Assembly: GCA_964485575.1 (NCBI GenBank)
Contig: CAZAJO010000003.1
Span: 19,722-83,721 of the forward strand
Length of the DNA stretch: 64,000 bases
Origin: an uncultured Gammaproteobacteria bacterium
GTDB lineage: Bacteria > Patescibacteriota > Microgenomatia > Levybacterales > GWA1-39-11
Direction of reading: 5' to 3'
In this document: piece after piece, positions 36,709-49,342 of the stretch
Layout: every line of letters starts with the position of its first letter
Numbering within the stretch: position 1 is the stretch's first letter
Notes under the pieces: model-generated
The model's database searches: none
Told to the model about the DNA's origin: nothing
The model's input: only the letters and a program-made list of their open reading frames with translations
Program-made: the position numbers and the translations under genes

Positions 36709-36727
36709 GTTTGATTTATTGAAACTT

Positions 36728-36816
36728 TGTCGAGCTCTACCAAAAAGTTAGAACTCTTCTTTATTAGCTCGCCCCTTCGGGGCTCGCAATGTTTCGCGGC
36801 GTGTGCGGGCGCCGCG
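36728..36816. repeat. IR-A: 89-bp perfect inverted-repeat copy (left boundary of the accessory segment)
   Basis: It is the exact reverse complement of 47486..47574 and starts with the TGTCG core. Confidence 0.9.
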
Positions 36817-37384
36817 AGAAAGTTATCATAATTATTTTTAGCGCGCGCAGTACAAAGAAATTTTTTTATATTTGTCCTTGTCCCGCCACCCGTACGCGGA
36901 CAAATCATAATTTGAAATTATTGTATCCCTTTAAAAAAGAAAACAAACAACGTTTGTCTCATCCTATAAATCCCACCCACCCAAGAAATATTGTGGCGGC
37001 GACCCCTTCCTTTGGGCGCAGGTCGCGCTAAGGCGCAACTCGCCAAAGTTTTGCCAGTTTTTAAAACCTCTAACAATCTCTTCCGGAGAAAATTTCCATT
37101 TAATACGGAAGCGCCGTCGGAGGGGTGTCCGCTTATTCGCCCCCGCCTTTTTTATTCTATCCCTCCTGTTTTACTTTCTTTGGGAAGACACATAATGACT
37201 CGTGCCGATGCTTTCTAAGACCCGAAGGATTTGCAATCGGCACTCGTGTGGGAGAAAAATACTTTGTAAAGTTCTTCCTAAGTCAACCGCTACCAGAAAA
37301 GTATTTTTCTCTTTTTAGGGCGCAATTCCAGACGGAGCGGGGGCGGCGGAGCCGCCAGGGAAAAGAAAAAAATATTGTGGACCA

Positions 37385-37566
37385 CAGAAGAACTGTGGAT
37401 GAATTTTTGAAATCCACAGATTGCCACAGTTTAGCCTCAACCTATCCACAGCTTGTGGACATCCACAGTCCTGTGGGTTTTACAAAAAACTTGAGGCTAT
37501 TTTTTTACATGTCTTGTGGGTACCCTGTGGGTTTTTGAAGCAAGATTTCCAAAACATCAACCCACA
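37385..37566. promoter_or_regulatory. Cluster of about 11 CCACAG/CTGTGG repeats, six resembling DnaA boxes (TTATCCACA) within 2 mismatches
   Basis: CTATCCACA at 37452..37460, AAATCCACA at 37420..37428 and ACATCCACA at 37469..37477, plus reverse copies. The run includes the palindromes TGTGGACCACA and CCACAGTCCTGTGG. Confidence 0.5.
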
Positions 37567-38108
37567 GAAAAGTCGATTTTTGGAATTCCCGACTCTGCGA
37601 TATTGCGCTCTATTTGTTGTCTCATATTTTTTGCATCCTCAAATTCCTTTCCTCTGGCCGCTGTCCTCTGAAGTAAAAGATCATTGCTAATTTGAAGGTC
37701 TACTATTAAATCCGCATCGAATACAATGGTTCCAAACACAGGCTCTCCAGGCCTTACTTTCACCCGTTCTTTTGCTAATCGTTCCATAGTTCTACCAATG
37801 TCTTCTGTCCATGGTTGCTGTTCGACATACACAGTTTCTTCAGGTGTTAGTTGGGGAAATATCAACTCGTCCATATCATGCGCACCAATGATGCTTTGGA
37901 GTAGAGTGGATTTACCGGTGCAAGTAGTACCGACCACAACGACCCGTTTGTCTTTATTCAGGTCAAGCACCGCTTGGAGTTTGTTTGCCAACTCTGATTT
38001 TTCACTGGGTATTTGGGAAACTTCTCTTTTAATTTTTTCTTCAGCCCTAGCTTTAACAATTTCAATTTGTATTCTTTGTCTTCTTAATTGTTCAAAAATG
38101 TTAGGCAT
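37557..38108 (-). CDS. P-loop NTPase, probable nucleoside/nucleotide kinase
   Basis: 183 aa with VVVVGTTCTGKSTLL Walker A and a small kinase-like size. Confidence 0.5.
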   Translation of the reverse strand: MPNIFEQLRRQRIQIEIVKARAEEKIKREVSQIPSEKSELANKLQAVLDLNKDKRVVVVGTTCTGKSTLLQSIIGAHDMDELIFPQLTPEETVYVEQQPWTEDIGRTMERLAKERVKVRPGEPVFGTIVFDADLIVDLQISNDLLLQRTAARGKEFEDAKNMRQQIERNIAESGIPKIDFSVG

Positions 38109-38111
38109 AGT

Positions 38112-38678
38112 TTATCGATTATTTTTTAAAATTTTACTATATATCAAATTTCTTATATAGTCTGCCTTGCTTATGTTTGATTGTTTTGATTGTTCAGAAA
38201 TAAATTTATACATCGAATCACTCATCATAAAATTAAACCTATTTGACAATATTTGTTTATTTGCAAAATTGAGATATTTATTGAATATTTCATTCAGTGT
38301 TTTTTTTGATTCTGGATTATACTGTTTAATCATTAGTAATCTGTTTGGATCTGCCAGGTATAAACCTGAATATCTTACTTGTGCTAAAAAGAGTGTTGGA
38401 ATTCCTTTTTGGAGTGCCTGAGACAATAAAAAACCAGCACCCGTACTTGAAATGGTTCCTTCAAAGACTAATCCATCGCATTTCAGCATCTCTTTAGAGA
38501 GCTTTTTGGCACGTTCTTCGAGCTCTTTTTCCGAAATAACACCCAGTTCGTGGGGCTCATCAAAAGAATGTTTAGAGAGTACCTCGTTTCCAAGAATTTC
38601 AAGCTCATCGACTATCTTACGATAATTGTTTTTTACTTTTGGATCAGACGATATACTTGCTAAGAAAAAAAGTTTCAT
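38112..38678 (-). CDS. Nucleoside 2-deoxyribosyltransferase-like (NDT/DNPH1-fold) protein with a C-terminal extension
   Basis: 188 aa. CDGLVFEGTISSTGAGFLLSQALQKGIPTLFL resembles the PF05014 core. Confidence 0.45.
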   Translation of the reverse strand: MKLFFLASISSDPKVKNNYRKIVDELEILGNEVLSKHSFDEPHELGVISEKELEERAKKLSKEMLKCDGLVFEGTISSTGAGFLLSQALQKGIPTLFLAQVRYSGLYLADPNRLLMIKQYNPESKKTLNEIFNKYLNFANKQILSNRFNFMMSDSMYKFISEQSKQSNISKADYIRNLIYSKILKNNR

Positions 38679-38688
38679 AGTGTTCTAC

Positions 38689-38716
38689 TTGATAAATTTT
38701 TTATTTGCCATATAAT
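38689..38716 (+). promoter_or_regulatory. Sigma70-like promoter for the methyltransferase-to-aminotransferase gene string
   Basis: TTGATA-N16-TATAAT, 40 bp upstream of the ATG at 38757. Confidence 0.5.
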
Positions 38717-38756
38717 ATCATAAAATGTTATGTAATGTATAACTTTTTTAGTTATT

Positions 38757-39443
38757 ATGGTCACGGAGAGATTAGACTTGAAACCTGTTCAGAGATTACT
38801 TGCTAGACATGCTCAACACAACTCTCCTTACTCGCAAGAGTTTGGAGGACTTAACTTAGTTATCTACCCAGACGTTTTTAATCCAGCCTATACTACGGTA
38901 AGTAGTTTATTACATGAAAATTTATCTATTGATCCCGGAGATAGAGTATTAGATATGTTTTGCGGATCTGGCGTACTGGGATTATCTGTAGCAGGATTAG
39001 CAGAAAAGGTTGTTGGTGTAGACATAGCTCCTATTGCAATAAAGTGCGCAACAGAAAACGCTTCAACCAATGGATTGTCGGAAAAAACTGAATTTAGATG
39101 CGGAAATGTATGGGGTGCGGTGAATGAAGGAGAAGTATTCGACTTAATTATTGCAAATCCTCCACTGCTTCCTGCCTACCCGGAATCCATACTTGAAGCT
39201 GCTGTTGCTGATAGTCCTGAGATGAGTATTACTACGAGATTTATAAATGAATGTGGAAAATACCTATCCAAAAAAGGACGAGCTTTAATGGCATTTTCTG
39301 ATGCATCTAGAATTGTATTTGATAATCCACTAGATCATGTTAGAAAATTATCGGACAAAGCAGGATTGTCTATGAATATAAAGGCCGAAAAAGATATGGT
39401 GTATGAAGTATATAGGATTTTAGAATTCAGGAGGAGCATGTAA
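38757..39443 (+). CDS. Class I SAM-dependent methyltransferase (HemK/small-MTase-like)
   Basis: 228 aa, LDMFCGSGVLG motif I and IIANPPL motif IV. Confidence 0.65.
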   Translation: MVTERLDLKPVQRLLARHAQHNSPYSQEFGGLNLVIYPDVFNPAYTTVSSLLHENLSIDPGDRVLDMFCGSGVLGLSVAGLAEKVVGVDIAPIAIKCATENASTNGLSEKTEFRCGNVWGAVNEGEVFDLIIANPPLLPAYPESILEAAVADSPEMSITTRFINECGKYLSKKGRALMAFSDASRIVFDNPLDHVRKLSDKAGLSMNIKAEKDMVYEVYRILEFRRSM

Positions 39444-40603
39444 TGGCAAAAATAATAGCAACTGCGGAAAACTTTGCATTTGGTCCTGCAAGTAAGCTTG
39501 TTACTGTTTGTGAGAAACTATTGCAAAATGGGCATGAAGTAATTTTTGTGGGAGAAGGCACAGCCTATCAGCTAGCAAGCAAAGTAAAATTCACAAAGAT
39601 TTATAAATATAACACTGACAATAAAAGTTTTATGAAATGGGGAGAAAAAGTCTTTAAACAAGCAGATATTCTTCTATCTAGTGTTGATAGATCAAGTGTG
39701 ATTCTCGCTAAAAAAATAGGGCTTCCCGTCATTTGGCTAGATATGCTTTTTTGGTGGTGGGATGAAATTCCAGAATATTTGTTCGATATAGATTTATATA
39801 TCCAACAAAATTCCGTGAAAAATGAAAGAAACATGAATAGATATAAGAATAAGATAAAAAACATGGTGATAGTGGGTCCGATTATTGATAAATCTTACAA
39901 TAAAAACAAGAAATTAAATCAACTACTTGTTGCTTTTGGAGGTTCCAATGCAGAAGGATGGGTAAAAATTGGAAGAGATACAAACTACCCTTATACTTTC
40001 GCAAATTTAATAATAAACAAAGTTCACACGGATAAATATGACAAAGTTTTATTTGCAGGAAATGAAGAGATTATGGCTAACCTGCAAAAAAAACACGGCA
40101 ACGAAAAGTTTAAATTTTCCATCCTTTCTCATGAAGAATGGCTAAGAGAAGTAGACAGATCTAGAGATATTTTAATCAATCCTGGGTTGGAGGCTCCACT
40201 AGAAGCAATAGCTTATGGTAAACCAATCTTTTTCCTTCCACCATATAACAGCAGCGCGTACGTGGAATTAGACGAATTTAGAGAGAAGGGATTAGCTGAT
40301 AAAAATAATTCAATTCATTTTTCTGATTATTTCCCTCATAAAAATTTAGCTGGAAGGGATTTAAAACAAATCATGACAGAATTCCTCGAGGAATTAAGAA
40401 AATTTGAAAATTCTCAAGAAATTTTGGACAATTGTGCAAGAAGAATTAATCAGTATCTACAATTATCCAGTAAAGAAAAGGATGCACAAAAACATAGACA
40501 GAACCAATTTATTAAAAGTTTGGGTAAAGAAGGATTGACAGATACAGTTTCTCTAATCAATAACATTATTTCTAATATTTCAAATAAACCATATGTTAAG
40601 TGA
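39443..40603 (+). CDS. Putative GT-B glycosyltransferase (MurG/UGT-like fold)
   Basis: 386 aa, N-terminal Rossmann-like MAKIIATAENFAFGPASKL..GHEV. Weak family assignment. Confidence 0.35.
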   Translation: MAKIIATAENFAFGPASKLVTVCEKLLQNGHEVIFVGEGTAYQLASKVKFTKIYKYNTDNKSFMKWGEKVFKQADILLSSVDRSSVILAKKIGLPVIWLDMLFWWWDEIPEYLFDIDLYIQQNSVKNERNMNRYKNKIKNMVIVGPIIDKSYNKNKKLNQLLVAFGGSNAEGWVKIGRDTNYPYTFANLIINKVHTDKYDKVLFAGNEEIMANLQKKHGNEKFKFSILSHEEWLREVDRSRDILINPGLEAPLEAIAYGKPIFFLPPYNSSAYVELDEFREKGLADKNNSIHFSDYFPHKNLAGRDLKQIMTEFLEELRKFENSQEILDNCARRINQYLQLSSKEKDAQKHRQNQFIKSLGKEGLTDTVSLINNIISNISNKPYVK

Positions 40604-41678
40604 AGTAGAGCCAATAGTTAACAAACATATGGCAAGTACTGAAAATGGGTACCTTTTAAGGAGATTAAGAGGCGGAATTAGTAGTGAAAACTATCAAGTA
40701 ACCCCTAACGTTCCTGATGAAGCAACCCACTCAGTAGTATTTACACTCTTTAGAGATCCATCTACCTGGGGTAGTATTGAAAGAGAAAATACTATTTATG
40801 ATCTTGTTAAAGATGATAAGGATGTTCGAATCCCTAAGATATTTGATTCAGGCATTGACAATATTGACGGTGTGCAAGTTGCCTTTTTACTCAGAGAATT
40901 TCTTGAAGGAGAAGACCTAGATACTATTTTAGATTCAAGACTTAACCCTCAGAGAAAAATGGGTGAAATAGCTGATATTGCAAAAGACTTAGGATTCAGA
41001 CTAGGAGCATTACATAGACATGATACTTCTATGTATGGTTTGATTGGAAAACCAAATAATGGATATACAAGTTGGGGTAATTATATTTTTGATGAGATAG
41101 AAAACGAAGCGCGACTTATTGGAGAAGTACCTCAAGAAAAGCAAATAGGAAGAACTAAGGCTGGAGATGTAGCTAAAACTTTATCTGGCTTAAGCGTCGT
41201 CTTCGGTACAATGCAAGATGCGTTTCGTATAAAAGAAAACCCGAGTTTAGCTCATGGCGATGCAAGGTTTGCGAATTTTATAGCCGAAAAAGACCATAAT
41301 AAATGGGGCATACAAGGAATGATTGACATGGAAGAAGCAACTGGCGGAGATCCCGAAATTGATATCGCCTTTATTGAAAATTGGCTGCACTTTGCGGATT
41401 ATAAAGTCGATTTCTATGCTCAATCACGGTATTTTACTCAAGGATATTTAAGTGTTAGAGGAATTAGCCCGAAATATAATGAGCGAAGATTAGCATATCA
41501 TGCTTTACGTTCTTTATCATACCTGAGAACAGTTTTTGGTTTTGATATAGATACTTTCTTGAGCATGAATTCGAGGAATGAGGCGTATGTGAAGAAACAT
41601 TTCGAAATTCTTGATTCCATTTCAAAGGGAAACGGTTTAGAGGATCTAGATATTAGACCTTTAATAAAGTTACATTAG
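40593..41678 (+). CDS. Phosphotransferase of the APH/choline-kinase family
   Basis: 361 aa with AHGDARFANF (catalytic HGD..N) and IDMEEATGGDPEIDIAF (DxE). Confidence 0.6.
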   Translation: MLSEVEPIVNKHMASTENGYLLRRLRGGISSENYQVTPNVPDEATHSVVFTLFRDPSTWGSIERENTIYDLVKDDKDVRIPKIFDSGIDNIDGVQVAFLLREFLEGEDLDTILDSRLNPQRKMGEIADIAKDLGFRLGALHRHDTSMYGLIGKPNNGYTSWGNYIFDEIENEARLIGEVPQEKQIGRTKAGDVAKTLSGLSVVFGTMQDAFRIKENPSLAHGDARFANFIAEKDHNKWGIQGMIDMEEATGGDPEIDIAFIENWLHFADYKVDFYAQSRYFTQGYLSVRGISPKYNERRLAYHALRSLSYLRTVFGFDIDTFLSMNSRNEAYVKKHFEILDSISKGNGLEDLDIRPLIKLH

Positions 41679-41679
41679 T

Positions 41680-42681
41680 ATGAAGAATAAACACGATGAA
41701 AGTTTCTATAAAAATAAAAAAGTATTAATTACTGGAGGCTTAGGATTTTTAGGCAGTAGTCTTGCAATTGAATTAGTAAAGCTTGGGGCTGACGTTACAG
41801 TTGTAGACTCGCTTATAAAAGGGTACGGAGGGAATATATATAATGTCCAGGATGTAAAAAATAAGATAAACATAAACATTTCTGACGTTCGGGATAGATA
41901 TAGCATGGATTACCTGGTGAAGGATAAGGAGATAATGTTTAATTTAGCAGGTACGTTAAGTCATGTTGATAGTATGGCTGATCCCTTTTCCGATCTTGAA
42001 ATAAATTGCAAAAGCCAGCTTTCTATATTGGAATCTTGTAGGCATAATAATCCAGAAATTAAAATTGTATGGGCGGGAACGAGAAATCAATATGGTAGAG
42101 CACAATATTTACCCGTTAATGAAGATCATCCACAAGTTCCGACAGATGTTAACGGAATTAATAATATTGCCGGTGAACAATATCACCTTCTCTACAATTC
42201 AGTCTATGGATTAAAAACCTGTTCTCTGAGGTTAACAAATTGTTATGGCCCAAGACATCAAATGCGACATTCCAGGCAAGGGGTTTTAAACTGGTTTATA
42301 AGACAAATTATGGATGGAGAAGAAATAAAATTATTTGGTTCAGGAATACAAATTCGAGATATTAACTTTGTTGATGATGTGACCAATGCATTTCTATTGG
42401 TAGGTGCCGCTGATAACGTTTGGGGGCAGGCGTACAATTTAGGAGGAAACGCTGTAAGCCTGGAAGAGTTTGTAAAAAAAATAATTAAAGTCTATGGTAA
42501 AGGTAGATTTAGCTCAGCAGAGTTTACTGATGATAGAAAAAAAATAGAGATAGGGAATTATATAGCAGATTGGGGAAAAATAAAAAAAGATGTAAATTGG
42601 AAACCAATTGTTAACGTAGAAAAAGGCATAGAAAGAACAATTAAGTACTATGAAAAAAACAAAAAACAATATTGGGGTTAA
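41680..42681 (+). CDS. NAD-dependent sugar-nucleotide epimerase/4,6-dehydratase (SDR family)
   Basis: 333 aa with a VLITGGLGFLGSSL Rossmann motif and a YxxxK-type core. Confidence 0.8.
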   Translation: MKNKHDESFYKNKKVLITGGLGFLGSSLAIELVKLGADVTVVDSLIKGYGGNIYNVQDVKNKININISDVRDRYSMDYLVKDKEIMFNLAGTLSHVDSMADPFSDLEINCKSQLSILESCRHNNPEIKIVWAGTRNQYGRAQYLPVNEDHPQVPTDVNGINNIAGEQYHLLYNSVYGLKTCSLRLTNCYGPRHQMRHSRQGVLNWFIRQIMDGEEIKLFGSGIQIRDINFVDDVTNAFLLVGAADNVWGQAYNLGGNAVSLEEFVKKIIKVYGKGRFSSAEFTDDRKKIEIGNYIADWGKIKKDVNWKPIVNVEKGIERTIKYYEKNKKQYWG

Positions 42682-43780
42682 GGTCCCATTTTTTCCAGCG
42701 GCAATAGAATACGCTTCGATAATGCATGATTTGCATGATGCCCTAGATGAGGTCGGAAGAAGTGGAAGATTAATTTTTGGACAAAAAGTTAATACCCTTG
42801 AAAACACAATCGCAAAATTAATGGAGTCTAAATATTGTGTAACTTGTGCTTCCGGAACTGATGCGATCATGCTTTCACTAAAGGCATTAGGAATCAAATC
42901 TGGTGATGAAGTAATTGTTCCTGCAAATGCGTACCCAACAGTATTTGGAGTTGTCCTAGCGGGTGCAATACCAAAATTAATAGATGTTAAAAATGAAACA
43001 GGTAATTTAAATCCCAAGCTTCTTAAAGATGCAATAACAAAAAAAACAAAAGCTGTCATTTTAGTTCATCTTTATGGGTTGGCTGCTGATATTCATGAAG
43101 TCAAAAAAATTTGTAAACAAAAAGGGGTATATTTGATTGAAGATTGTGCTCAGGCTTTTGGGTCAATGCATAAAGGAAGTCCGGTTGGTTCATTCGGGGA
43201 TATATCAATATTAAGTTTTTACCCAACAAAAAATCTTGGTGCATTAGGTGATGGTGGTGCGATAGTAACATCAATCAAAAAGGTACATGAAAAACTCTTG
43301 ATGTTGAGAATGTACGGAGAGAAAAAACGTTATGACAGTGAGTTGCTAAGCGGTCACAGTCGCCTTGATGAGTTACAAGCTGCATTTTTACTAAAAAAAC
43401 TTAGAAAATTGAACGGTTGGATTACAAGACGAAAAAGGCTTGCTAAAATTTACATGGAATCTTTATCTAATATTAAAAACCTATCACTACCCATAGATCA
43501 TTTAGAAGAGCATACGTATCATTTGTTCGTTGTTCAAACTGAATATCGAGATGAACTTCAGCTTTGGCTTTCTAAAAATGGCATAGAAACTGGTATCCAT
43601 TATCCAAAATCAATACATTTAACAAAAACATTTTCTTTTGCTGGAAAAGTTGGAGATTTTCCTGTTTCTGAAAAACATAACAGAACTGTACTGTCTCTAC
43701 CCATGCATCAGTTTTTAACTTATAAACAAATAAAATATGTTTCTAGTAAAATTGTAGATTTTTTTGAGACAATTAGTTAA
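42650..43780 (+). CDS. DegT/DnrJ/EryC1/StrS-family PLP-dependent sugar aminotransferase
   Basis: 376 aa with SGTDAIMLSLKALGI and an SFYPTKNLGALGDGG PLP-lysine block. Confidence 0.8.
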   Translation: MKKTKNNIGVKVPFFPAAIEYASIMHDLHDALDEVGRSGRLIFGQKVNTLENTIAKLMESKYCVTCASGTDAIMLSLKALGIKSGDEVIVPANAYPTVFGVVLAGAIPKLIDVKNETGNLNPKLLKDAITKKTKAVILVHLYGLAADIHEVKKICKQKGVYLIEDCAQAFGSMHKGSPVGSFGDISILSFYPTKNLGALGDGGAIVTSIKKVHEKLLMLRMYGEKKRYDSELLSGHSRLDELQAAFLLKKLRKLNGWITRRKRLAKIYMESLSNIKNLSLPIDHLEEHTYHLFVVQTEYRDELQLWLSKNGIETGIHYPKSIHLTKTFSFAGKVGDFPVSEKHNRTVLSLPMHQFLTYKQIKYVSSKIVDFFETIS

Positions 43781-43789
43781 TTAAAAAAT

Positions 43790-44215
43790 ATGAAAGTTTT
43801 TATAGCAGGTATAATGCAAGGAAATCGTAAGGATAAACTGATCCACTCTCAAGATTATAGAGAAATCATATCTAATAAATTAGATCTGATTGTGGAAAAC
43901 GTTGAGGTAATCGATCCTGATAAGACTGACCCGGATAGATTATCTTATAACCATGAACAAGCAAAAGAAATGTTTTTTAAATATTGTAAAATAGCCGGAG
44001 AAGCGGACTTGTTAATAGCCTACATTCCAGAAGCCAGTATGGGATCTGCGGTGGAAATGTGGATGGCGTATCAAGCAAGAATCCCAATAGTAACTATCTC
44101 TTCAATGAAAGCAAATTGGGTAATTAAATTGTTATCAAACGAGATATATGAAACCTTAGAAGAATTCATTGAAAATTTTGACAACGATATGCTTAGCAAG
44201 CTAAAAACCATTTAG
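43790..44215 (+). CDS. Second nucleoside 2-deoxyribosyltransferase-like protein
   Basis: 141 aa. ADLLIAYIPEASMGSAVEMWMAYQARIPIV resembles the NDT-family core. Confidence 0.4.
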   Translation: MKVFIAGIMQGNRKDKLIHSQDYREIISNKLDLIVENVEVIDPDKTDPDRLSYNHEQAKEMFFKYCKIAGEADLLIAYIPEASMGSAVEMWMAYQARIPIVTISSMKANWVIKLLSNEIYETLEEFIENFDNDMLSKLKTI

Positions 44216-44824
44216 ATGATCTATAAAGTTAATATTAATTAATTTATACTCTTTGCTTATTGGGTCAAAATATACAGTAGTAATTGAAGCCTCATTAATC
44301 GTATCTTCGAGGGAATCAGTAAGTGATGGTACTACTGATTTCAATAATTTCTCATCGAATATATTCCGTAAAAAATCCCCAATAATTCCCCCATGCGTAA
44401 CTAATACTAGATTAAGATCAGAATAATCTGACGAACTAATTATCTTATGTATTCTATTTCCAGCATCTCTAGACGAGTCGCCGACAGGCGGAATCCAATC
44501 TCTGTCTACTGTGGATCTGTTCCACATCTCTAAAAATTGTTCAAATGACTGATTTTGATCATCTCCCCAATTTGCACGCTCTCTAAGCAAGTCGTCGACC
44601 TTAAATGTAAGGTTTAATTCCTTTGAGATAATTTCCGCGGTTTGCTTAGATCTTAAAATGGGGCTAGACAAAACAACGTGTACATTTTTATTAGAGAGAT
44701 GTTGGGCGGTTTTTTTAACCTGCGCTTGCCCTTTAGCTGTCAATGGAGGATCACCTTTAATTTTTTGCTTCTCTCCGTGTCTTATTATGTAGATAGTGGT
44801 AGCCATAAAAAAATTATACAACAA
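44201..44824 (-). CDS. Histidine phosphatase (phosphoglycerate-mutase / SixA family)
   Basis: 207 aa with an RHGE catalytic motif (IIRHGEK) and a downstream His. Confidence 0.7.
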   Translation of the reverse strand: MLYNFFMATTIYIIRHGEKQKIKGDPPLTAKGQAQVKKTAQHLSNKNVHVVLSSPILRSKQTAEIISKELNLTFKVDDLLRERANWGDDQNQSFEQFLEMWNRSTVDRDWIPPVGDSSRDAGNRIHKIISSSDYSDLNLVLVTHGGIIGDFLRNIFDEKLLKSVVPSLTDSLEDTINEASITTVYFDPISKEYKLININFIDHLNGF

Positions 44825-45170
44825 ATTACTTAAATTTAAGACAATTTATGAACCTGAGCATAATATTGCATTTTTTACTCTTGCATTTGTAAGAAAAAGA
44901 AGCAAAAATATTTATATGGATGAAAACCAGTATAAAGAAAGTCCTGAAACTAGAGAGATTAAAAGTGAGATAGCGCAGGAGAAACCTCGTGATGAGGAAG
45001 GGCATTTTGTTCACGTAGAGCAGCCCCAGACCTCCACAACACCACATTTTAATCCTATCTCTCATTCCTCCACGATGAAACAGCCATCCACAAATCCAAT
45101 GATGATGAGCTTATCGATGTCCATGTGGGAAATCCTCTTCACAAGATTGTGGAACTGCTTCAAGATATAA
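44796..45170 (+). CDS. Hypothetical protein (may start at ATG 44916)
   Basis: ORF only, with Q/P/T-rich low-complexity sequence. Possibly one frameshifted gene together with 45125..45517. Confidence 0.2.
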   Translation: MVAIKKLYNKLLKFKTIYEPEHNIAFFTLAFVRKRSKNIYMDENQYKESPETREIKSEIAQEKPRDEEGHFVHVEQPQTSTTPHFNPISHSSTMKQPSTNPMMMSLSMSMWEILFTRLWNCFKI

Positions 45171-45517
45171 AAAAGCAAAAAGCATTTAGTTTTACTCTTA
45201 AAGGTTCTTTGGGTATTGCGGGGGTAGCACTTGCCCTTGGGATGTTCGGAATTTTCGGAGCGGGAAATTTACTGTGCGAGAAAGGCACTCAAAAAGAGAT
45301 TGGGGTAATCAAAACCCTCAGTGTTATGGAAGAGGAACCAGTGGCAATTCCGCTTTTGTCAGACATTATTGATTATTTTGCGCCAAGAGCCAGACACTAC
45401 AGCGTTGTTTTGATTAGAAAAGATGAGTCCGTCATTTCCCTTCCTTATTCTCGGAACGTAAATTTTTCTCAATACAATAATGCCCCCGTCATCGCCACCG
45501 GCAACTACGACGCTTGA
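45125..45517 (+). CDS. Hypothetical small membrane protein (GTG start)
   Basis: 130 aa, with one TM-like segment GSLGIAGVALALGMFGIFGAG. Confidence 0.25.
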   Translation: MGNPLHKIVELLQDIKKQKAFSFTLKGSLGIAGVALALGMFGIFGAGNLLCEKGTQKEIGVIKTLSVMEEEPVAIPLLSDIIDYFAPRARHYSVVLIRKDESVISLPYSRNVNFSQYNNAPVIATGNYDA

Positions 45518-45616
45518 GGCCAGAAACTAAAAAGTCACCGACCCGTCTGCTCTTGAAGGTTACAATACACTTCCCTAATCTATCCAAGCTCTCTTCTTCA
45601 AAAAACACGATAACAA

Positions 45617-45645
45617 TTGCTATCAGCCTCAAACAGGCGTATAAT
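45617..45645 (+). promoter_or_regulatory. Sigma70-like promoter upstream of the OLD-family nuclease gene
   Basis: TTGCTA-N17-TATAAT ending 15 nt before ATG 45661. This implies a very short leader. Confidence 0.4.
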
Positions 45646-45660
45646 TTTGCTAGCTCAAAC

Positions 45661-47295
45661 ATGTTTATAAAATCCCTAAAAATCAAGAACTTCAGATCAA
45701 TAAAACATCTTGATATTGAACCAAGCGATTTATGCGCTATTATTGGACCCAATAGTGCTGGAAAAACAAATATTCTAAAAGCAATAGATTTGATTCTTGG
45801 AGAAGGATGGACAACGAAAGCAAAAGTTGCAAAAGAGCTATTCAATGATCCAGACAAGCCGGTTGAAATAGCAATAGAATTAGATGAATCTATAAGCTTC
45901 ACGGGAGGAAAAGGATATGACGTTACTGTTTCAAGTATAGAGTTGGAAATGACACTACGTCCTGAACTACATGTTCAGACAACAATAAATAGGGGTGATA
46001 AATTTTACGATCAAGAAAAATTTAAAAAATTATGCCATTTTATTTACATCCCTTCAGAAAGGTCTCTAGAGTCAGAATTGAGAGTTAGTCAGTGGACGAT
46101 GTTAGGTAAATTGATGAAACTTATTTATGAAGCATACCTTACAAACTACGACAACGATGAAGTAAAGTTAAAAGATGCATTTGAAAAGGAAATAAATCCG
46201 GCAAAAGAATTCCTTGAAAAAGATTTTTCAAATGGTTCAAGTCTAATAACTTTTAAAAAGTTTTCTGATGTATTTAAAAAATATTGTCTTAAAAATAGTG
46301 CGGGATTAGCAAATGGCTTTGAACCTGTCCTTAATATTTACAATATAAACTGGTTTTACAAAACTTTACAAATACATGTCAAGGAGGATCTGCCAGATAA
46401 ACATTTTGAAAGCGATGAAGTTGGTGCCGGAATGCAAACGCTTCTTATGATTTCAATTTTTCAAACCTATGCAGAACTTATGGGTGGAAGAGTTATCTTT
46501 GGAGTTGAAGAACCAGAGATTTATTTATATCCACAGGCACAAAGGTCTCTTTATAAAAACTTTATTGAATTATCAAACAATACGCAGATATTTTACACAA
46601 CACATAATCCAAATTTTGTTGATGCAGCCAGACCAGATAACATGCTTCTATTGAGAAAATCAACAGATAAGGGCACATATAAATTAGAAAAAAATGAATA
46701 TTTTAACTCAACAATTGCAGAGAAAGAGAAATATAAAATTTATACACATTTTAATCCAGAGAGAAATGAAGTATTTTTTGCGAGAAAAGTGTTATTGGTT
46801 GAAGGAGATTCCGATAAAATACTTTTTACCACGCTTTGTGAAGAAAAGTGGAATATAGATATAGATTTACTAGGTGTATCAATTATATCTTGTGGTGGAA
46901 AAAGTGGTGTTAATTATTTTATAGGTGTTTGTAATCTAATAGGCTTAGACGATTATTTTGCCGTTTGGGATGAGGACAATGATCATTTTCAACCAGATAA
47001 AGATTTCCTACCATATACGTTTGCAGCAAACAAAGGGCTAGAAATTAAAGAAAATTTAGAGAAATTTTTAAAGCTTTCTTCGAATAAAGACGCAACTAAA
47101 GTCAAGAATGCTTACGAATGGGCAATTAATATAAAAACAGATGACATCCCTCAAGAATTTAGGATTATAAAAGATTTCATTATTGAAGGATATCATCCAA
47201 AGAGTAGTAATAAGGTTGAGGTAGTAACTACAAATGTAATTGTCGAAACTACAGAAGTAGATACAGAACCTAACCCAGACGATATTCCATTTTAA
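45661..47295 (+). CDS. OLD-family (overcoming lysogenization defect) ATPase-Toprim nuclease, standalone class-1-like
   Basis: MFIKSLKIKNFRSIKHLDIE..IIGPNSAGKTN gives the ABC-ATPase N-terminus. The C-terminal Toprim block is VLLVEGDSDKILF. I chose the start at the family-typical N-terminus rather than the 45514 extension. Confidence 0.75.
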   Translation: MFIKSLKIKNFRSIKHLDIEPSDLCAIIGPNSAGKTNILKAIDLILGEGWTTKAKVAKELFNDPDKPVEIAIELDESISFTGGKGYDVTVSSIELEMTLRPELHVQTTINRGDKFYDQEKFKKLCHFIYIPSERSLESELRVSQWTMLGKLMKLIYEAYLTNYDNDEVKLKDAFEKEINPAKEFLEKDFSNGSSLITFKKFSDVFKKYCLKNSAGLANGFEPVLNIYNINWFYKTLQIHVKEDLPDKHFESDEVGAGMQTLLMISIFQTYAELMGGRVIFGVEEPEIYLYPQAQRSLYKNFIELSNNTQIFYTTHNPNFVDAARPDNMLLLRKSTDKGTYKLEKNEYFNSTIAEKEKYKIYTHFNPERNEVFFARKVLLVEGDSDKILFTTLCEEKWNIDIDLLGVSIISCGGKSGVNYFIGVCNLIGLDDYFAVWDEDNDHFQPDKDFLPYTFAANKGLEIKENLEKFLKLSSNKDATKVKNAYEWAINIKTDDIPQEFRIIKDFIIEGYHPKSSNKVEVVTTNVIVETTEVDTEPNPDDIPF

Positions 47296-47354
47296 CTACA
47301 TTTGATATATATCCTCTCAGTTGAAAAACTTCGTGAAACTGATATATTAAACTC

Positions 47355-47436
47355 GAACACAACACTTTGGATCTCTTTTTTGATGGCCGCTTTGGACAAT
47401 TGGAGAGATCCTGTTGTGTTCAACCAGAGCGGCCAT
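47355..47436. repeat. Interleaved inverted repeats A-B-A'-B' between the OLD gene and IR-A'
   Basis: GAACACAACA..GGATCTC (47355..47375) pairs with GAGATCCTGTTGTGTTC (47405..47421). ATGGCCGCTTTGG (47383..47395) pairs with CCAGAGCGGCCAT (47424..47436). The two hairpins are mutually exclusive. Confidence 0.6.
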
Positions 47437-47485
47437 TTTAGAAAATTTTTGCGTTTTCAAAAGGCGAGCCAACACATTTAAGGTA

Positions 47486-47574
47486 CGCGGCGCCCGCACA
47501 CGCCGCGAAACATTGCGAGCCCCGAAGGGGCGAGCTAATAAAGAAGAGTTCTAACTTTTTGGTAGAGCTCGACA
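47486..47574. repeat. IR-A': 89-bp perfect inverted copy of IR-A
   Basis: It is the exact reverse complement of 36728..36816 and ends in CGACA, the reverse complement of the core. Confidence 0.9.
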
Positions 47575-47672
47575 TTTAAAGAGTTTTCATTTTTAAGCTC
47601 AGAAAGTTGGAGTCCCGCAAGTGCGGGACGGATTGCCCCAAAGCCCTTTTTGAGAATTGGGGAAAGTTGCCG
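47570..47672. repeat. IR-B: 103-bp inverted-repeat copy immediately upstream of the serine recombinase gene
   Basis: It is the reverse complement of 49099..49202 apart from one 1-bp indel, contains the palindrome GTCCCGCA-AG-TGCGGGAC, and overlaps IR-A' by the 5-bp CGACA core. Confidence 0.9.
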
Positions 47673-47704
47673 AAAAGAAGTAGAAAACGCAAAAATTTAA
47701 TACC

Positions 47705-49342
47705 ATGAAATACATTGCATACTGCAGGAAATCCAGAGATGAAGCTGATAAACAGGTCTTGTCTATTGAGGCCCAAATTGCAGAGTTACAGGAATTTGCA
47801 AAACGTGAGAAAATTGAAATTGTTGAATTTGTCGAAGAAGCAAAAACTGCCAAAGCCCCCGGACGTGAGAAATTTTCAGAAGTAATTCAAAAGCTAGAGC
47901 GCGGACTTGCCCAGGGGATTATTGCGTGGCATCCCGACCGCTTGGCAAGAAACAGTATTGATGGTGGAAAGATTATCTATTTACTCGATACCGGAAAAAT
48001 AAAGGATTTAAAGTTTCCAACCTTCTGGTTTGAAAATACTCCTCAGGGAAAATTTATGTTAAATATCGCTTTTGGACAAAGTAAATATTACATAGATAAT
48101 CTTTCTGAAAATGTGAGGCGGGGGCTTCGGCAGAAAATACGTAATGGCGTCTGGCCGCACAAGCCAACGTATGGATATGTAAATAATCCTAAAACCCGCG
48201 GTATTGATGTTGACCCTTTTGCCTCTTCGGGAATCATAAAAGCATATGAAGCGTTTTGCAAAGGAGACAAGACCTTTACAGATATTTCAAAGTTATTATT
48301 CAAATGCGGCTTGCAACAAAGAAACGGAAAGCCACTTCATATAAATGAAGTAAGAAAAATACTGTCCGACAAGTTTTATATTGGCATTATGAAATTTAAG
48401 GGGGAATATCATCCCGGAACACATAAGCTATTTATCCCAAAAGATTTATTTCAAAAAGTACAGGAGGAATTAAAATGGCGTGAGGCACATCACAATAAAT
48501 CTTTTGGCTTTCCGTTTCTGGGACTTATGAAATGTAGTGAGTGTGGCGCTTCCATAACCGCTGAAAAACATACAAAATTCTATAAAGGTACCAACCGTCG
48601 TCCCACCTATGTTTACTACCGCTGTACTAAAAAAATGGGTCCTTGCTCACAGAAAATGATAAAAGGTGAACTATTGGAAGAACAACTGAGAGAAATTGTT
48701 GCAAGCTGCGCATTACCGGAAAGCTGGATTCCTCAATGGCTTTCCTGGGTTGAGAGGTATGAAATATCTGAAAAAGAATTATCGGCTTCATCTATTCAAA
48801 AATTTCAGGATGAGATAGTATCACTCGACAAAAAGTTAAATATCCTGCTTGATGGTTTTTTGGAAAATATAGTTGACAGTGATACATATAAAAGAAAGAA
48901 AAATGAAATTTTTGAAGAAAAGATACTTCTTGAAGAACAAATCGCAAAATTAAAGGGTGAGGATGGAAACCGGCTCGAACTTCTTCGGGAATTAATAGAA
49001 GTGTCGTCACAATGCGAAAAAATTGCGCGCGCTAAAAACAATTGCGAGGATTTGGCAATCCTCGCGAAACGTGTCGGCTCGAACTTCTTTTTAAAGGAAC
49101 GGCAACTTTCCCCAATTCTCAAAAAGGGCTTTGGGGCAATCCGTCCCGCACTTGCGGGACTCCAACTTTCTGAGCTTAAAAATGAAAACTCTTTAAATGT
49201 CGGGGTGCAGGGAATTGAACCCTGGCCGCACGACCCCCAGCCGTACATTCTACCGTTAAACCACACCCCGAGCGAAGCGAGGGGAGCCAAGACAAAATCT
49301 CTGATTTTGGCTTACACCCCGATAGGTCGCTCCATATTTTAA
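47705..49342 (+). CDS. Large serine recombinase (integrase/invertase family); true C-terminus uncertain
   Basis: MKYIAYCRKSRDE is the resolvase catalytic-Ser N-terminus. A recombinase domain (GVWPHKPTYGY) is followed by a zinc ribbon (CSECG..YYRCTKK..C) and a coiled-coil. The ORF stays open through IR-B' and the antisense tRNA-Pro until 49342. Confidence 0.8.
   Translation: MKYIAYCRKSRDEADKQVLSIEAQIAELQEFAKREKIEIVEFVEEAKTAKAPGREKFSEVIQKLERGLAQGIIAWHPDRLARNSIDGGKIIYLLDTGKIKDLKFPTFWFENTPQGKFMLNIAFGQSKYYIDNLSENVRRGLRQKIRNGVWPHKPTYGYVNNPKTRGIDVDPFASSGIIKAYEAFCKGDKTFTDISKLLFKCGLQQRNGKPLHINEVRKILSDKFYIGIMKFKGEYHPGTHKLFIPKDLFQKVQEELKWREAHHNKSFGFPFLGLMKCSECGASITAEKHTKFYKGTNRRPTYVYYRCTKKMGPCSQKMIKGELLEEQLREIVASCALPESWIPQWLSWVERYEISEKELSASSIQKFQDEIVSLDKKLNILLDGFLENIVDSDTYKRKKNEIFEEKILLEEQIAKLKGEDGNRLELLRELIEVSSQCEKIARAKNNCEDLAILAKRVGSNFFLKERQLSPILKKGFGAIRPALAGLQLSELKNENSLNVGVQGIEPWPHDPQPYILPLNHTPSEARGAKTKSLILAYTPIGRSIF
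49099..49202. repeat. IR-B': 104-bp inverted copy of IR-B, ending at the tRNA-Pro 3' end
   Basis: It matches the reverse complement of 47570..47672 with one extra G, and terminates with the TGTCG core overlapping the last bases of the tRNA. Confidence 0.9.
49200..49270 (-). tRNA. tRNA-Pro (anticodon GGG)
   Basis: A manually folded 71-nt cloverleaf on the minus strand has a 7-bp acceptor stem (CGGGGUG/CACCCCG), a D-arm with GG and a T-arm CAGGG-UUCAAUU-CCCUG. The anticodon loop is CU-GGG-GG with U33 and G37. CCA is not encoded. Confidence 0.8.

What the first reader, a model, noticed from the sequence alone, without database searches (positions are those of the whole stretch)
47486..47672. 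Central 187-bp composite site whose two halves are each duplicated, inverted, at the segment termini; all copies share a TGTCG core
The region 47486..47672 reads a'-CGACA-b. IR-A (36728..) is TGTCG followed by the reverse complement of a'. IR-B' (..49202) is the reverse complement of b followed by TGTCG. The site in front of the recombinase gene is therefore a full site, while the two termini are half sites carrying the same 5-bp core. This geometry is expected if strand exchange occurs at the core between a full site and half sites. It is not expected from random duplication. The b arm also carries the perfect palindrome GTCCCGCA-AG-TGCGGGAC. That palindrome is a plausible recombinase or accessory-protein binding site, and it sits in the recombinase promoter region.
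Basis: seen in the sequence. Interest (0 to 1): 0.7.

Follow-up and report, generated by a model that had tools for sequence, protein, structure and literature searches.

The report
Spare attachment site of tRNA-targeting island
The 187-bp site is an intact second copy of the attachment site of a 12.5-kb mobile island that a large serine recombinase inserted into the end of a tRNA-Pro gene. The same layout, two inverted site copies around the recombinase gene, recurs in dozens of related elements in Patescibacteria and was not found described in four full-text searches.

Summary
47486-47672 reads a'-CGACA-b. a'+core is repeated inverted at 36728-36816 (89 nt, 100%), and core+b at 49100-49202 (103 nt, 100%).

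The interpretation needs correcting. The distal copies are hybrid junctions of an integrated island (36728-49202), not half sites. The right one joins b to the 3' end of tRNA-Pro(GGG). The left one joins a' to the former tRNA-downstream spacer. A close relative (L104) has the empty site.

The recombinase ORF runs through rc(b)-core. The excised circle would therefore carry two inverted copies of the site around the gene. One was consumed by integration, and the other is the finding.

The geometry recurs widely. 38 of 82 related loci show both repeat pairs, and 59 sit on tRNAs of 12 amino-acid types. The crossover maps to tRNA nt 71-72. The a' arm carries a T-loop-like motif 4 nt further out than the real T-loop.

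One element is 99.5% identical in two hosts, and both site copies travelled with it. In L072, L114 and L115 the recombinase cassette lies in the opposite orientation. In L047 the a' arm is replaced by a second tRNA. The spare copy therefore looks recombination-competent, but its function is inferred. The palindrome behaves as a covarying hairpin, not a fixed operator.

The parts
36728..36816 (.). X: left junction of the island (attR-type). It consists of the core TGTCG (36728-36732) plus the reverse complement of arm a'. The host spacer and Cu-oxidase gene lie immediately to the left.
   Evidence: It is 100% inverted repeat of 47486-47574. The empty site in L104 shows that the insertion begins here. 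The same junction type occurs in more than 30 related loci.
36830..36849 (.). Short inverted copy of recombinase codons for KIARAKN (partner 49024-49043). It brackets the junction-side copy of the site.
   Evidence: This is I13. An equivalent motif, TTATTTTTTGCGCGCGCGATTTT, lies 1-14 nt inside X in most of the 26 of 31 loci that have it.
36960..37358 (+). Conserved structured non-coding module (candidate RNA) at the X-proximal end of the cargo. It is an accessory of the larger elements.
   Evidence: A profile search finds it in 14 of 84 loci, always on the + strand and close inside X. No conserved ORF is present and there is no Rfam hit. 19 covarying pairs were found, and controls support the fold.
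36817..47485 (.). Cargo segment between the two a' copies. It encodes a P-loop NTPase-like protein, a methyltransferase, an APH-type kinase, an epimerase, a DegT aminotransferase, a histidine phosphatase and an OLD/GajA-like nuclease (45514-47295).
   Evidence: Pfam and PADLOC scans support these assignments. Cargo differs between related elements, from 0.56 to 10.7 kb.
47296..47457 (.). Conserved backbone module upstream of Y. It holds a promoter-like site (47321-47348, +), a long hairpin ATGGCCGCTTTGG...CCAGAGCGGCCAT followed by a T-run, and an inverted copy of the int leader/ATG (47434-47458).
   Evidence: The module is homologous in at least 12 elements, and it lies on the other side of int in L114/L115. 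The leader bracket occurs in 22 of 31 loci.
47486..47672 (.). Y: the finding. It is an intact element-borne site, a' (47486-47569) - core CGACA (47570-47574) - b (47575-47672).
   Evidence: The family profile shows GTTCGAA/GTTCTAA at -22..-16, TTTTC at -13..-9, ACCA at +2..+5 and GAAAT at +11..+15 relative to the crossover.
47570..47571 (.). Inferred crossover dinucleotide CG. It corresponds to tRNA nt 71-72 in the right junction (49201-49202) and to 36731-36732 in the left junction.
   Evidence: The minimal shared core across 31 anchored loci is positions 0/+1. Identity to the tRNA-side junction starts exactly at 0 in most of them.
47612..47629 (.). Palindrome GTCCCGCA-AG-TGCGGGAC (a 7-bp stem with a 4-nt loop) in arm b, 42 nt from the core.
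   Evidence: L001 has GTCCCGC-aatc-GCGGGAC. Other elements have different perfect stems at +16 to +46. Stems of at least 7 bp occur in 55% of b arms versus 6% of shuffles.
47705..49342 (+). Large serine recombinase gene as it stands in the integrated state. Codons 466-498 are encoded by rc(b). Codons from about 499 onward (49203-49342) are read-through across the antisense tRNA.
   Evidence: Pfam finds Resolvase, Recombinase and Zn_ribbon_recom. Homology stops at about residue 499, and the tails of homologs translate antisense tRNA. The native tail predicted from rc(a') is ...SLNV-ELYQKVRTLLY*. Such native tails are seen in P0046, P0080 and P0081.
49100..49202 (.). Z: right junction of the island (attL-type). 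It consists of the reverse complement of arm b plus the core TGTCG (49198-49202), which overlaps the tRNA 3' end.
   Evidence: It is 100% inverted repeat of 47570-47672. It abuts tRNA-Pro. The empty site in L104 confirms the boundary.
49199..49270 (-). tRNA-Pro(GGG), the integration target. Its last nucleotides are now supplied by the island.
   Evidence: ARAGORN detects it and Rfam scores it 55.5 bits. It is 72/72 nt identical in the empty-site relative L104.

Best explanation
Shown: window 36728-49202 is a 12.5-kb integrative island. A large serine recombinase (47705-) inserted it into the 3' end of tRNA-Pro(GGG), with exchange at a 2-bp step (tRNA nt 71-72, the CG of the shared CGACA). The two distal copies are the products of that event. 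X is a' arm + core + host spacer. Z is tRNA T-arm/acceptor + core + b arm. The b arm restores the discriminator and 3' end of the tRNA.

Shown: the element carries its attachment site twice, in inverted orientation, on either side of the recombinase gene. One copy spans the last ~45 codons and 3' UTR of the gene in the joined-ends (circular) form, and integration split that copy. The other is the intact 187-bp site just upstream of the gene. Both copies travel with the element between hosts.

Shown: the a' arm mimics the tRNA T-loop (GTTCGAA/GTTCTAA), placed 4 nt further from the crossover than the real T-loop. This is the attP-versus-attB half-site geometry known for serine integrases. It explains how relatives target 12 different tRNA types.

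Inferred: the retained copy is still a live recombination site. It shares its b arm with the tRNA junction. Exchange between those two inverted sites therefore flips the recombinase cassette and regenerates the same two kinds of site. One state has int convergent on the tRNA with a foreign tail, and this is the common state. The other has int downstream of the tRNA with its native tail and 3' structures.
For: Repeats and core.

Target and enzyme: tRNA at the right end. Large serine recombinase domains, invariant S10 and four Cys.

Empty site in a relative with identical RecA and identical tRNA-Pro.

Read-through: antisense-tRNA tails are seen in nearly all homologs.

Recurrence: the three-site geometry occurs in L001, L003 and L004. 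Of 82 loci, 38 have both repeat pairs, 24 have the int-flanking pair only and 9 the distal pair only. A convergent tRNA sits at the int 3' end in 59 loci, of 12 amino-acid types. The junction triplets align in more than 30 loci.

Site anatomy: the minimal core is tRNA nt 71-72, and b starts with A-C-C-A. The T-loop mimic is at half-site positions 17-23 and the real T-loop at 13-19. This compares with 16-24 versus 11-19 in Rutherford 2013 (PMC3783163).

Transfer: one element is 99.5% identical over 7.1 kb in two hosts whose flanks are 72-74% identical. The same G/A difference between its two b copies is present in both hosts.

Other states: L072 is the flipped state in an integrated element. 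L114 and L115 have the native tail and an inverted flank. In L047 the a' arm is replaced by a second tRNA-Glu, which needs exchange at the core without flanking homology. L006 shows the cargo of this very element in the other orientation.

Hairpins: they are enriched and their stems covary.
Against: No circular form was observed, and no read-level evidence for switching in this strain was obtained. The exact-match metagenome scan found nothing. Logan contigs simply break 30 nt into the repeats.

L006 carries a chimeric join to GC-rich foreign DNA further along. Its inverted junction could therefore be technical.

Assemblies are heavily biased to one state. About 59 loci are convergent versus 3-4 flipped, and the cargo marker is canonical in 12 of 12 elements. 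Flipping is therefore rare, selected against, or not a regulated switch.

Flips could be made by host homologous recombination within the ~100-nt repeats. recA is adjacent, and sequence cannot distinguish this from exchange at the core.

Canonical serine integrases do not recombine attP with attL/attR or with attP. The half-site type of arm b is unresolved. Two tRNA-Arg elements have 2 extra nt at X relative to Y.
Confidence: 0.72

Rival explanations
1. The internal copy is a non-recombining regulatory element. It would act as an operator or leader through which the recombinase, or RNA/DNA hairpins, controls its own gene. Gene conversion would keep it similar to the functional site. The rare alternative arrangements would be accidents.
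For: The site lies between a promoter-like element (47321-47348) and the ATG. An inverted copy of the int leader/start region brackets it in 22 of 31 loci and could sequester the start site in read-through transcripts. The arms are GC-rich, hairpin-bearing and fold well, with z = -4.2. State bias is strong.
Against: L047 shows the a' arm of such a copy exchanged for a tRNA exactly at the core, with no flanking homology. Identity extends 60-137 nt on both sides, far beyond an operator. Differences between copies show no bias expected for RNA pairing: 9 versus 7 transitions, plus many transversions and indels.
Confidence: 0.25
2. The inverted repeats are substrates only for host homologous recombination. 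The flipped states and the concerted evolution of the copies would be RecA-driven, and the recombinase would act only on the copy at its 3' end.
For: The repeats are about 100 nt at about 98% identity. The copies differ by random-looking changes consistent with periodic conversion. recA/recX lie next to the site. Canonical serine integrases do not use attP x attL pairs (PMC3783163).
Against: L047 cannot be made by homologous recombination. The tandem junction in L003, where a foreign int 3' end is joined to rc(a') at the core, also needs site-specific exchange. The repeat boundary on the outer side always falls at the 2-bp crossover.
Confidence: 0.3
3. The central site would be the active full site, and the termini would be half sites that exchange strands with it. 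The whole region would then be an inversion system and not an insertion.
For: Both repeat pairs are inverted and share the core. Both sub-segments are seen in the opposite orientation somewhere.
Against: The termini have full second arms. The tRNA arm is conserved and carries the T-loop at attB spacing. An empty site proves insertion. The same element moved between hosts as a unit.
Confidence: 0.08
4. The region holds two independent mobile units lying side by side. One would be an IS-like recombinase cassette with 103-bp terminal inverted repeats, and the other a non-autonomous cargo cassette with 89-bp terminal inverted repeats.
For: Each sub-segment is bounded by its own perfect inverted repeat ending in the core. 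In L047 the recombinase cassette alone sits between two tRNAs.
Against: The unit that moved between hosts is X to Z as a whole. The two repeat pairs co-occur wherever the flanks are long enough. No solo cassette at a non-tRNA site was seen. The conserved backbone modules lie outside the recombinase cassette.
Confidence: 0.06
5. The structure is an assembly artefact caused by mixing integrated and excised forms.
For: Many contigs break at these repeats.
Against: The same geometry appears in dozens of independent assemblies made with different assemblers, including contigs of 0.2-1 Mb and complete genomes. The junctions M1end-a' and b-int need real reads. The internal copy differs from the junction copy by inherited substitutions.
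Confidence: 0.01

Closest known systems
Large serine recombinase (serine integrase) integration modules of phages and integrative elements (phiC31, Bxb1, A118/LI, SPbeta, TP901-1)
   Same: The domain set is the same: resolvase catalytic domain, recombinase domain and zinc ribbon. The inferred 2-bp crossover is shared by the element and host sites. Only a few bp are identical between the partners. A recognition motif sits about 4-5 bp further from the centre in the element arm than in the host arm (PMC3783163). The products are hybrid junctions flanking the element.
   Different: The element carries two inverted copies of its site around int, not one. The site lies inside the 3' end of the int ORF. 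The conserved identity and structure of the arms extend about 100 nt, not about 25 bp. The target is the T-arm/acceptor end of tRNA genes. The host-side right arm shows no conservation. Alternative arrangements imply pairings (site x hybrid junction) that canonical integrases refuse. By sequence the protein is distant from all solved structures; the only hit is the 3g13 catalytic domain at E = 1e-7.
tRNA-targeting genomic islands and prophages with tyrosine integrases (Islander-type islands; tycheposons of Prochlorococcus, bioRxiv 10.1101/2020.12.28.424599)
   Same: Insertion is at the 3' end of a tRNA gene, and the element supplies the tRNA end. Cargo is variable and includes defence genes. 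Related elements use many tRNA species.
   Different: The enzyme is a serine recombinase, not a tyrosine recombinase. Shared identity is 2-9 bp, not tens of bp of tRNA sequence. int points into the tRNA and reads through it. An internal spare site is present.
2-micron plasmid Flp/FRT layout, and invertible cassettes of Hin/Gin/Cin-type invertases
   Same: The recombinase gene or an adjacent segment is bounded by inverted repeats that contain the enzyme's own crossover site. Both orientations occur.
   Different: Flp is a tyrosine recombinase on an autonomous plasmid. Hin and Gin are small serine recombinases that need an enhancer and Fis and sit outside or beside the invertible segment. Here a large serine recombinase lies inside the segment, and one of the two sites is split by chromosomal integration.
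Serine-recombinase transposons Tn4451/Tn5397 (TnpX/TndX)
   Same: A large serine recombinase excises and inserts a cargo-bearing element via a circular form without strict attP/attB-only behaviour (from memory, not checked here).
   Different: Those elements have a single joint site, a GA crossover and no tRNA targeting. They have no inverted duplicate of the joint next to the gene.
SSV1-type archaeal integrases whose attP lies within the int gene
   Same: Integration splits or alters the integrase ORF because the site is inside it (from memory).
   Different: Those are tyrosine recombinases, and the whole gene is partitioned. Here only the last ~12 codons are swapped, and a spare copy of that end lies upstream in inverted orientation.

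Membership tests
Large serine recombinase / serine integrase | N-terminal resolvase-type catalytic domain with nucleophilic serine | tested here: met
   PF00239 scores E = 4e-22 over residues 4-150. Y6, R8, K9 and S10 are invariant in 21 homologs. The PDB hit 3g13 covers the catalytic domain only.
Large serine recombinase / serine integrase | C-terminal recombinase domain plus zinc-ribbon domain | tested here: met
   PF07508 (E = 4e-8) and PF13408 (E = 7e-9) both match. C277, C280, C307 and C314 are invariant.
Large serine recombinase / serine integrase | Coiled-coil motif embedded in the zinc-ribbon domain that controls directionality | not tested
   Residues ~330-430 are conserved and heptad-like by eye. 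No structure prediction or coiled-coil analysis was run.
Large serine recombinase / serine integrase | Exchange at a 2-bp central dinucleotide shared by element and host sites | tested here: met
   The minimal shared core across 31 anchored loci is 2 nt, at tRNA nt 71-72. This is inferred from junction sequences, not from cleavage mapping.
Large serine recombinase / serine integrase | ZD-type recognition motif about 5 bp further out in attP half sites than in attB half sites | tested here: inconclusive
   The left halves fit: GTTCGAA at positions 17-23 in a' versus 13-19 in the tRNA. The right halves do not resolve. Arm b has only a weak motif about 3 nt closer than in a', and the host right arm shows no conservation.
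Large serine recombinase / serine integrase | Strict attP x attB selectivity, with excision needing a directionality factor | not testable with these tools
   No candidate factor was identified. L003, L047 and L072 suggest looser pairing.
tRNA-integrated genomic island | Insertion at a tRNA gene with the tRNA left intact | tested here: met
   tRNA-Pro(GGG) at 49199-49270 is found by ARAGORN and scores 55.5 bits in Rfam. The b arm supplies the nucleotides after nt 72.
tRNA-integrated genomic island | Empty target site in a close relative | tested here: met
   L104 has the identical RecA protein and identical tRNA-Pro. Its Cu-oxidase gene is 6 nt + GTCG away from the tRNA end.
tRNA-integrated genomic island | Evidence of horizontal movement as a unit | tested here: met
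   For a sister element, L001 and L008 are 99.5% identical over 7.1 kb while host flanks are 72-74% identical. This was not shown for the window's own element.
Site-specific DNA inversion switch (inverton) | Segment bounded by inverted repeats and found in both orientations | tested here: met
   At family level, the int cassette is flipped in L072, L114 and L115. For this element only the cargo flip in L006 was seen, and it carries a chimera caveat.
Site-specific DNA inversion switch (inverton) | Both orientations coexist within one population and the flip is catalysed by the linked recombinase | not testable with these tools
   No read-level data were available. Assemblies are strongly biased to one state.
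Hin/Gin-type invertase system | Small serine recombinase with C-terminal HTH, plus enhancer/Fis dependence | tested here: not met
   The protein is 498+ aa with recombinase and zinc-ribbon domains.
Transposon or IS with terminal inverted repeats and target duplication | The unit bounded by the inverted repeats moves on its own and duplicates its target | tested here: not met
   The unit that moved is X to Z. The ends of the whole island are different arms with a directly repeated core. No solo cassette was seen.

The most novel reading that the evidence does not exclude
This family would turn a normally one-way serine integrase into a reversible switch without a directionality factor. The internal site (a'-core-b) and the tRNA junction (tRNA-core-b) differ only in their left arms, one attP-type and one attB-type. 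They share an identical right arm. Recombining them inverts the recombinase gene and regenerates the same two site types, so the reaction can run again in either direction. The flip would move int between a silenced state and an excision-competent state. In the silenced state it is tRNA-convergent with a foreign C-terminal tail. In the competent state it is driven from the tRNA side and has its native tail and 3' structures. Long structured arms and, in larger elements, a dedicated ~400-nt RNA would assist. The T-loop mimic would make any tRNA gene a potential target.
Probability: 0.25. Interest if true: 0.85.

Novelty: new variant of a known kind. Interest (0 to 1): 0.7.

Why it matters
Patescibacteria (CPR bacteria) have tiny genomes, and their routes of gene exchange are poorly known. 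This analysis defines a large, coherent family of integrative elements in them. The recombinase search returned 6920 significant hits among the 8000 candidates scored. The elements sit on at least 12 tRNA types and carry defence and cell-surface sugar genes. One element was caught in two host species.

For recombination biology, the family offers natural serine-integrase sites with three unusual properties. A tRNA T-loop serves as the host recognition motif. The crossover is at a fixed tRNA position. A second inverted site copy makes the recombinase gene itself invertible. If the flip is enzyme-catalysed, it shows how attP x attB chemistry can be made reversible by arm sharing. That is directly testable on plasmids and relevant to integrase-based genome engineering, for example tRNA genes as ubiquitous landing pads.

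If the spare copy is only regulatory, the finding is still a useful annotation rule. Recombinase ORFs ending in '...SLxVG-(G/R)IEP...PLNYTP' are read-through into a tRNA, and they mark island ends to the base.

Tried and rejected
(1) Assembly artefact. Rejected because the geometry recurs in independent assemblies and the two copies carry inherited differences.

(2) A palindromic core (TGT-CG-ACA) making orientation neutral. Rejected because the central dinucleotide is not palindromic in most relatives: CT, TC, CC and CA all occur.

(3) Copies kept alike by pairing of the int mRNA leader with its 3' end. Rejected because there is no wobble bias (9 versus 7), and transversions and indels are common.

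(4) Prophage origin. The recombinase family is almost absent from IMG/VR, with 2 distant hits. No phage genes are present in the cargo.

(5) The palindrome as a terminator. No terminator-like site was found in 47250-47760.

(6) Known RNA family for the conserved non-coding module. No Rfam hit at E <= 1. Three viral pattern hits were GC-rich chance matches.

(7) Exact-match scan of JGI metagenome contigs for a'+core, to count junction types. It returned zero hits.

(8) Exact-protein look-ups of cargo and flank genes, to find alternative junctions. Logan contigs end 30 nt into each repeat and are uninformative. JGI contigs L088, L092 and L094 show the canonical left junction.

(9) Cargo orientation among relatives. 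All shared segments are co-linear.

(10) Literature. Four full-text searches found no description of this architecture.

(11) Full mapping of the L003 tandem array was abandoned as too complex for the remaining value.
Full report
OBSERVATION

The repeat finder on 36000-50000 reports two perfect inverted repeats. Positions 36728-36816 pair with 47486-47574 (89 nt). Positions 47570-47672 pair with 49100-49202 (103 nt). They overlap in 47570-47574, CGACA. A BLAST of the 187-bp site against all 64 kb finds only these three copies. The palindrome GTCCCGCA-AG-TGCGGGAC is at 47612-47629. The ORF 47705-49342 has Resolvase, Recombinase and Zn_ribbon_recom domains, so it is a large serine recombinase.

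WHAT THE DISTAL COPIES ARE

ARAGORN finds one tRNA in the window, tRNA-Pro(GGG), on the minus strand at 49199-49270 (Rfam 55.5 bits). The right copy therefore ends, with its TGTCG, inside the last nucleotides of the tRNA. The recombinase ORF continues through the antisense tRNA for 46 more codons.

An alignment of 20 homologs shows that real homology stops near residue 499. Nearly all homologs then read '...VG.(G/R)IE(P/L)...PLNYTP', which is the antisense translation of a T-arm and acceptor stem. The whole family therefore sits convergent on tRNA 3' ends.

The left copy abuts the 5' region of a Cu-oxidase_4 gene (36022-36708, minus strand). recA and recX follow the tRNA.

A look-up of the identical RecA protein found L104, a 205-kb ENA contig. 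There the Cu-oxidase gene start is followed by ATATTTGA, then GTCG, then a 72/72-identical tRNA-Pro, with no island. The flanks are 88-93% identical to the window. So 36728-49202 is a 12.5-kb insertion.

X (left) is a'-core-host spacer. Z (right) is tRNA-core-b. These are hybrid junctions of the attR/attL kind, not half sites.

Joining the island ends gives rc(b)-TGTCG-rc(a'), which is the reverse complement of the central site. In that form the recombinase ORF would end '...SLNV-ELYQKVRTLLY*'. The circular form must therefore hold two inverted copies of the site around the recombinase gene body (1427 bp). Integration used the copy at the 3' end of the gene, and the finding is the other copy.

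RECURRENCE

The recombinase belongs to a very large Patescibacteria family. The search returned 6920 significant hits among the 8000 candidates scored.

Contigs for three homologs at 65-72% identity show the same three-site geometry at tRNA-Pro/recA. I then fetched 80 loci from reference genomes and scanned them. The set covered 82 distinct loci:
- 38 have both repeat pairs.
- 24 have only the int-flanking pair.
- 9 have only the distal pair.
- 11 have neither.
Many of the incomplete cases are contigs that end at the gene. A convergent tRNA lies at the int 3' end in 59 loci, and the tRNAs are of 12 amino-acid types.

In the 32 loci with abutting repeats, the median arm lengths are 98 nt (a') and 103.5 nt (b). 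Mean identity is 98% for both. Cargo between the a' copies ranges from 0.56 to 10.7 kb.

In each locus the three junctions align as X^ = a'-core-variable, Y = a'-core-b and Z^ = tRNA-core-b.

SITE ANATOMY

I anchored 31 loci on the T-loop, so that position 0 is tRNA nt 71. Identity between Y and the tRNA junction begins exactly at position 0 in most loci. Identity between Y and the left junction ends between +1 and +9. The minimal common core is therefore nt 71-72, a 2-bp exchange as expected for a serine recombinase.

The b arm begins N-N-A-C-C-A, so the element rebuilds the discriminator and the CCA region. A conserved G-A-a-a-t lies at +11..+15.

The a' arm carries GTTCGAA/GTTCTAA at -22..-16 and TTTTC at -13..-9. 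The real T-loop GTTCGA sits at -18..-13. In half-site numbering this is 17-23 versus 13-19.

Rutherford et al. 2013 place the zinc-ribbon-domain motif at 16-24 in attP and shift it 5 bp inward in attB (PMC3783163). The left arms thus behave as classical element-type and host-type half sites. The T-loop is the shared recognition motif, which explains the spread over many tRNAs.

The host-side right arm shows no conservation. The type of arm b is unresolved.

THE ELEMENT MOVES WITH BOTH COPIES

L001 and L008 share 99.5% identity from the left core to the right junction (7.1 kb). Their flanks, including recA and ribosomal genes, are only 72-74% identical, and their tRNA-Pro sequences differ. In both hosts the upstream b copy has G where the 3' copy has A. 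The two copies are therefore inherited as such and are not remade at each insertion.

ALTERNATIVE ARRANGEMENTS

(a) L072 has tRNA-Trp upstream and co-directional with int. The order is b, int, a full rc(b)-core-rc(a') site, with the native tail.

(b) Three of about 96 homologs with complete ends have native tails. Their contigs L114 and L115 start inside b. The ~200 nt after the full site is the reverse complement of a conserved module. In at least 12 canonical loci that module lies upstream of Y; in the window it is at 47296-47457. The b-bounded recombinase cassette therefore occurs in both orientations.

(c) In L047 both b arms are joined to tRNA-Glu genes (ttc and ctc). This requires exchange at the core of the internal copy with a partner that shares no flanking homology.

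(d) L006, a JGI contig, is 100% identical to the window. It joins rc(36817-38207) to a'-core-b-int, which means the cargo is flipped. Its far end, and that of an independent Logan contig, runs into GC-rich foreign DNA. I treat it as suggestive only.

(e) L003 is a tandem array in which another recombinase gene reads into core-rc(a').

Against frequent switching, the cargo marker module is canonical in 12 of 12 elements, and flipped int states are a few per cent.

ARMS BEYOND THE CORE

Both arms are GC islands (0.5-0.7, versus 0.37-0.49 for the loci). They carry hairpins at similar positions. The stems differ between elements yet remain perfect, and many share 8-nt loops such as GGTGGGGT or CCCGCCCA. 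Perfect stems of at least 7 bp occur in 55% of b arms and 58% of a' arms, versus 6% of dinucleotide shuffles.

L001 keeps the stem GTCCCGC/GCGGGAC with a different loop. It lies 42 nt from the crossover, beyond the conserved core-proximal motifs. In its other copy it encodes a variable stretch of the recombinase tail.

Each full site is also bracketed by a short inverted repeat. The int leader/ATG region is repeated left of a' in 22 of 31 loci; in the window the pair is 47434-47458 and 47683-47707. A KIARAKN-coding motif of int is repeated just inside X in 26 of 31 loci; in the window the pair is 49024-49043 and 36830-36849.

The copies differ by about 1.6% with no wobble bias. This argues against selection for RNA pairing and for periodic homogenisation.

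COMPARISON AND NOVELTY

The system works like a serine-integrase integration module and meets that family's sequence-level criteria. It also resembles tRNA-targeting islands, which are usually tyrosine-integrase elements. It differs in several ways:
- duplication of the site in inverted orientation around int
- placement of the site inside the ORF end
- the T-loop mimic
- the ~100-nt structured arms
- evidence for pairings that canonical integrases refuse.
Four literature searches found nothing describing it. I class it as a new variant of a known kind.

CONFIDENCE

Confidence is high (about 0.9) for the integration reading and for the two-copy design. It is moderate (about 0.45) for the claim that the retained copy is a live site whose exchange with the tRNA junction flips the recombinase cassette. 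Who catalyses the flips, and what the flip achieves, is not shown.

SIDE FINDING

A ~400-nt conserved non-coding module lies at 36960-37358 on the + strand. It occurs just inside the left junction in 12 distinct elements (14 of 84 loci). It has no conserved ORF and no Rfam match.

The predicted multi-helix fold has 19 pairs with compensatory changes. In that fold 90.5% of cells are paired, versus 46-57% when partners are slid. Only eight sequences were used, and the structure was derived from the same alignment.

Noticed in passing
window 36960-37358 (+); also L001 4652-5050, L046 4619-5031, L013 2891-3321, L014 5029-5403, L034 4304-4676, L031 5402-5773, L027 663-1054, L009 5782-6215, L075 3209-3700: A conserved ~400-nt non-coding module lies just inside the left junction of the larger elements, always on the int strand. 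It has no conserved ORF and no Rfam match. The multi-helix fold has 19 covarying pairs, with 90.5% of cells paired versus 46-57% in slid controls. G-U pairs favour the + strand. It is a candidate new structured RNA, or an ssDNA structure, linked to this recombinase family.
   Followed up: partly
window 47296-47457: A conserved backbone module lies between the cargo and Y. It is homologous in at least 12 elements. It contains a promoter-like site (47321-47348), a long hairpin ATGGCCGCTTTGG...CCAGAGCGGCCAT followed by a T-run, and an inverted copy of the int leader/ATG. A 31-codon minus-strand ORF starts at 47436, but it is not conserved as an ORF in L114.
   Followed up: partly
window 47434-47458 / 47683-47707 and 36830-36849 / 49024-49043: Each full copy of the site is bracketed by its own short inverted repeat made of int sequences. 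One pair comes from the leader and start codon. The other comes from the codons for the invariant KIARAKN motif. The pattern is general: 22 of 31 and 26 of 31 loci. The first pair could sequester the int start region in read-through transcripts.
   Followed up: partly
arms of many loci (e.g. L024, L025, L028, L029, L031, L034, L043, L050 a' arms; L013, L031, L034 b arms) and window 36972-36982: Hairpin loops in both arms are often the 8-mers GGTGGGGT/GGTGGGGG or their C-rich counterparts. The RNA-like module has a conserved unpaired CCCACCCACCC. The two are complementary, but whether they interact is unknown.
   Followed up: no
L024 and L029 (tRNA-Arg elements), left junction versus internal site: The left junction has two extra nucleotides (GC) next to the core compared with the internal copy, in two related elements on different tRNA-Arg genes. 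Simple conservative exchange does not explain this.
   Followed up: no
L006 2863-3120 and L007 1315-1572 (break after window 48956): Two independent assemblies of one sample join the recombinase gene at codon 418 to ~65% GC foreign DNA. The chimeric join is present in the reads. It lowers trust in L006 as evidence for cargo inversion.
   Followed up: partly
L047 9796-11582: The recombinase cassette is flanked on both sides by inverted tRNA-Glu genes (ttc and ctc), and a truncated tRNA-like fragment lies just upstream (9700-9795). This suggests that the internal site recombined with a second compatible tRNA gene, which implies a chromosomal rearrangement.
   Followed up: partly
L003 1943-11569: This is a tandem or nested array at tRNA-Pro. 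It holds an N-terminally truncated recombinase gene (2589-3545) that ends in a b-like arm. A second, different recombinase gene (6616-8160) reads into core-rc(a'). The canonical unit follows. The arrangement implies accretion at an already occupied site.
   Followed up: partly
window 45514-47295 and 38757-44824: The cargo includes an OLD/Gabija-GajA-like ATPase-TOPRIM nuclease (PADLOC Old, E = 5.5e-47). It also holds a block of sugar/nucleotide-modifying genes: methyltransferase, APH-type kinase, NAD epimerase, DegT aminotransferase, a deoxyribosyltransferase-like protein and a histidine phosphatase. The sister element in L001 carries a different ABC/AAA_21-type ATPase at the same position.
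   Followed up: partly
proteins P0002, P0004, P0006, P0007, P0009 and others: A set of ~880-930-aa homologs matches the recombinase over ~86% of its length at 44-48% identity. Their extra ~400 residues were not examined.
   Followed up: no
record titles: Many reference MAGs carrying these Patescibacteria-type loci are titled 'uncultured Gammaproteobacteria' or 'Pseudomonadales' (binchicken co-assemblies). The neighbouring genes and recombinase relatives point to Patescibacteria, so the titles look like placeholder or mislabelled taxonomy.
   Followed up: no
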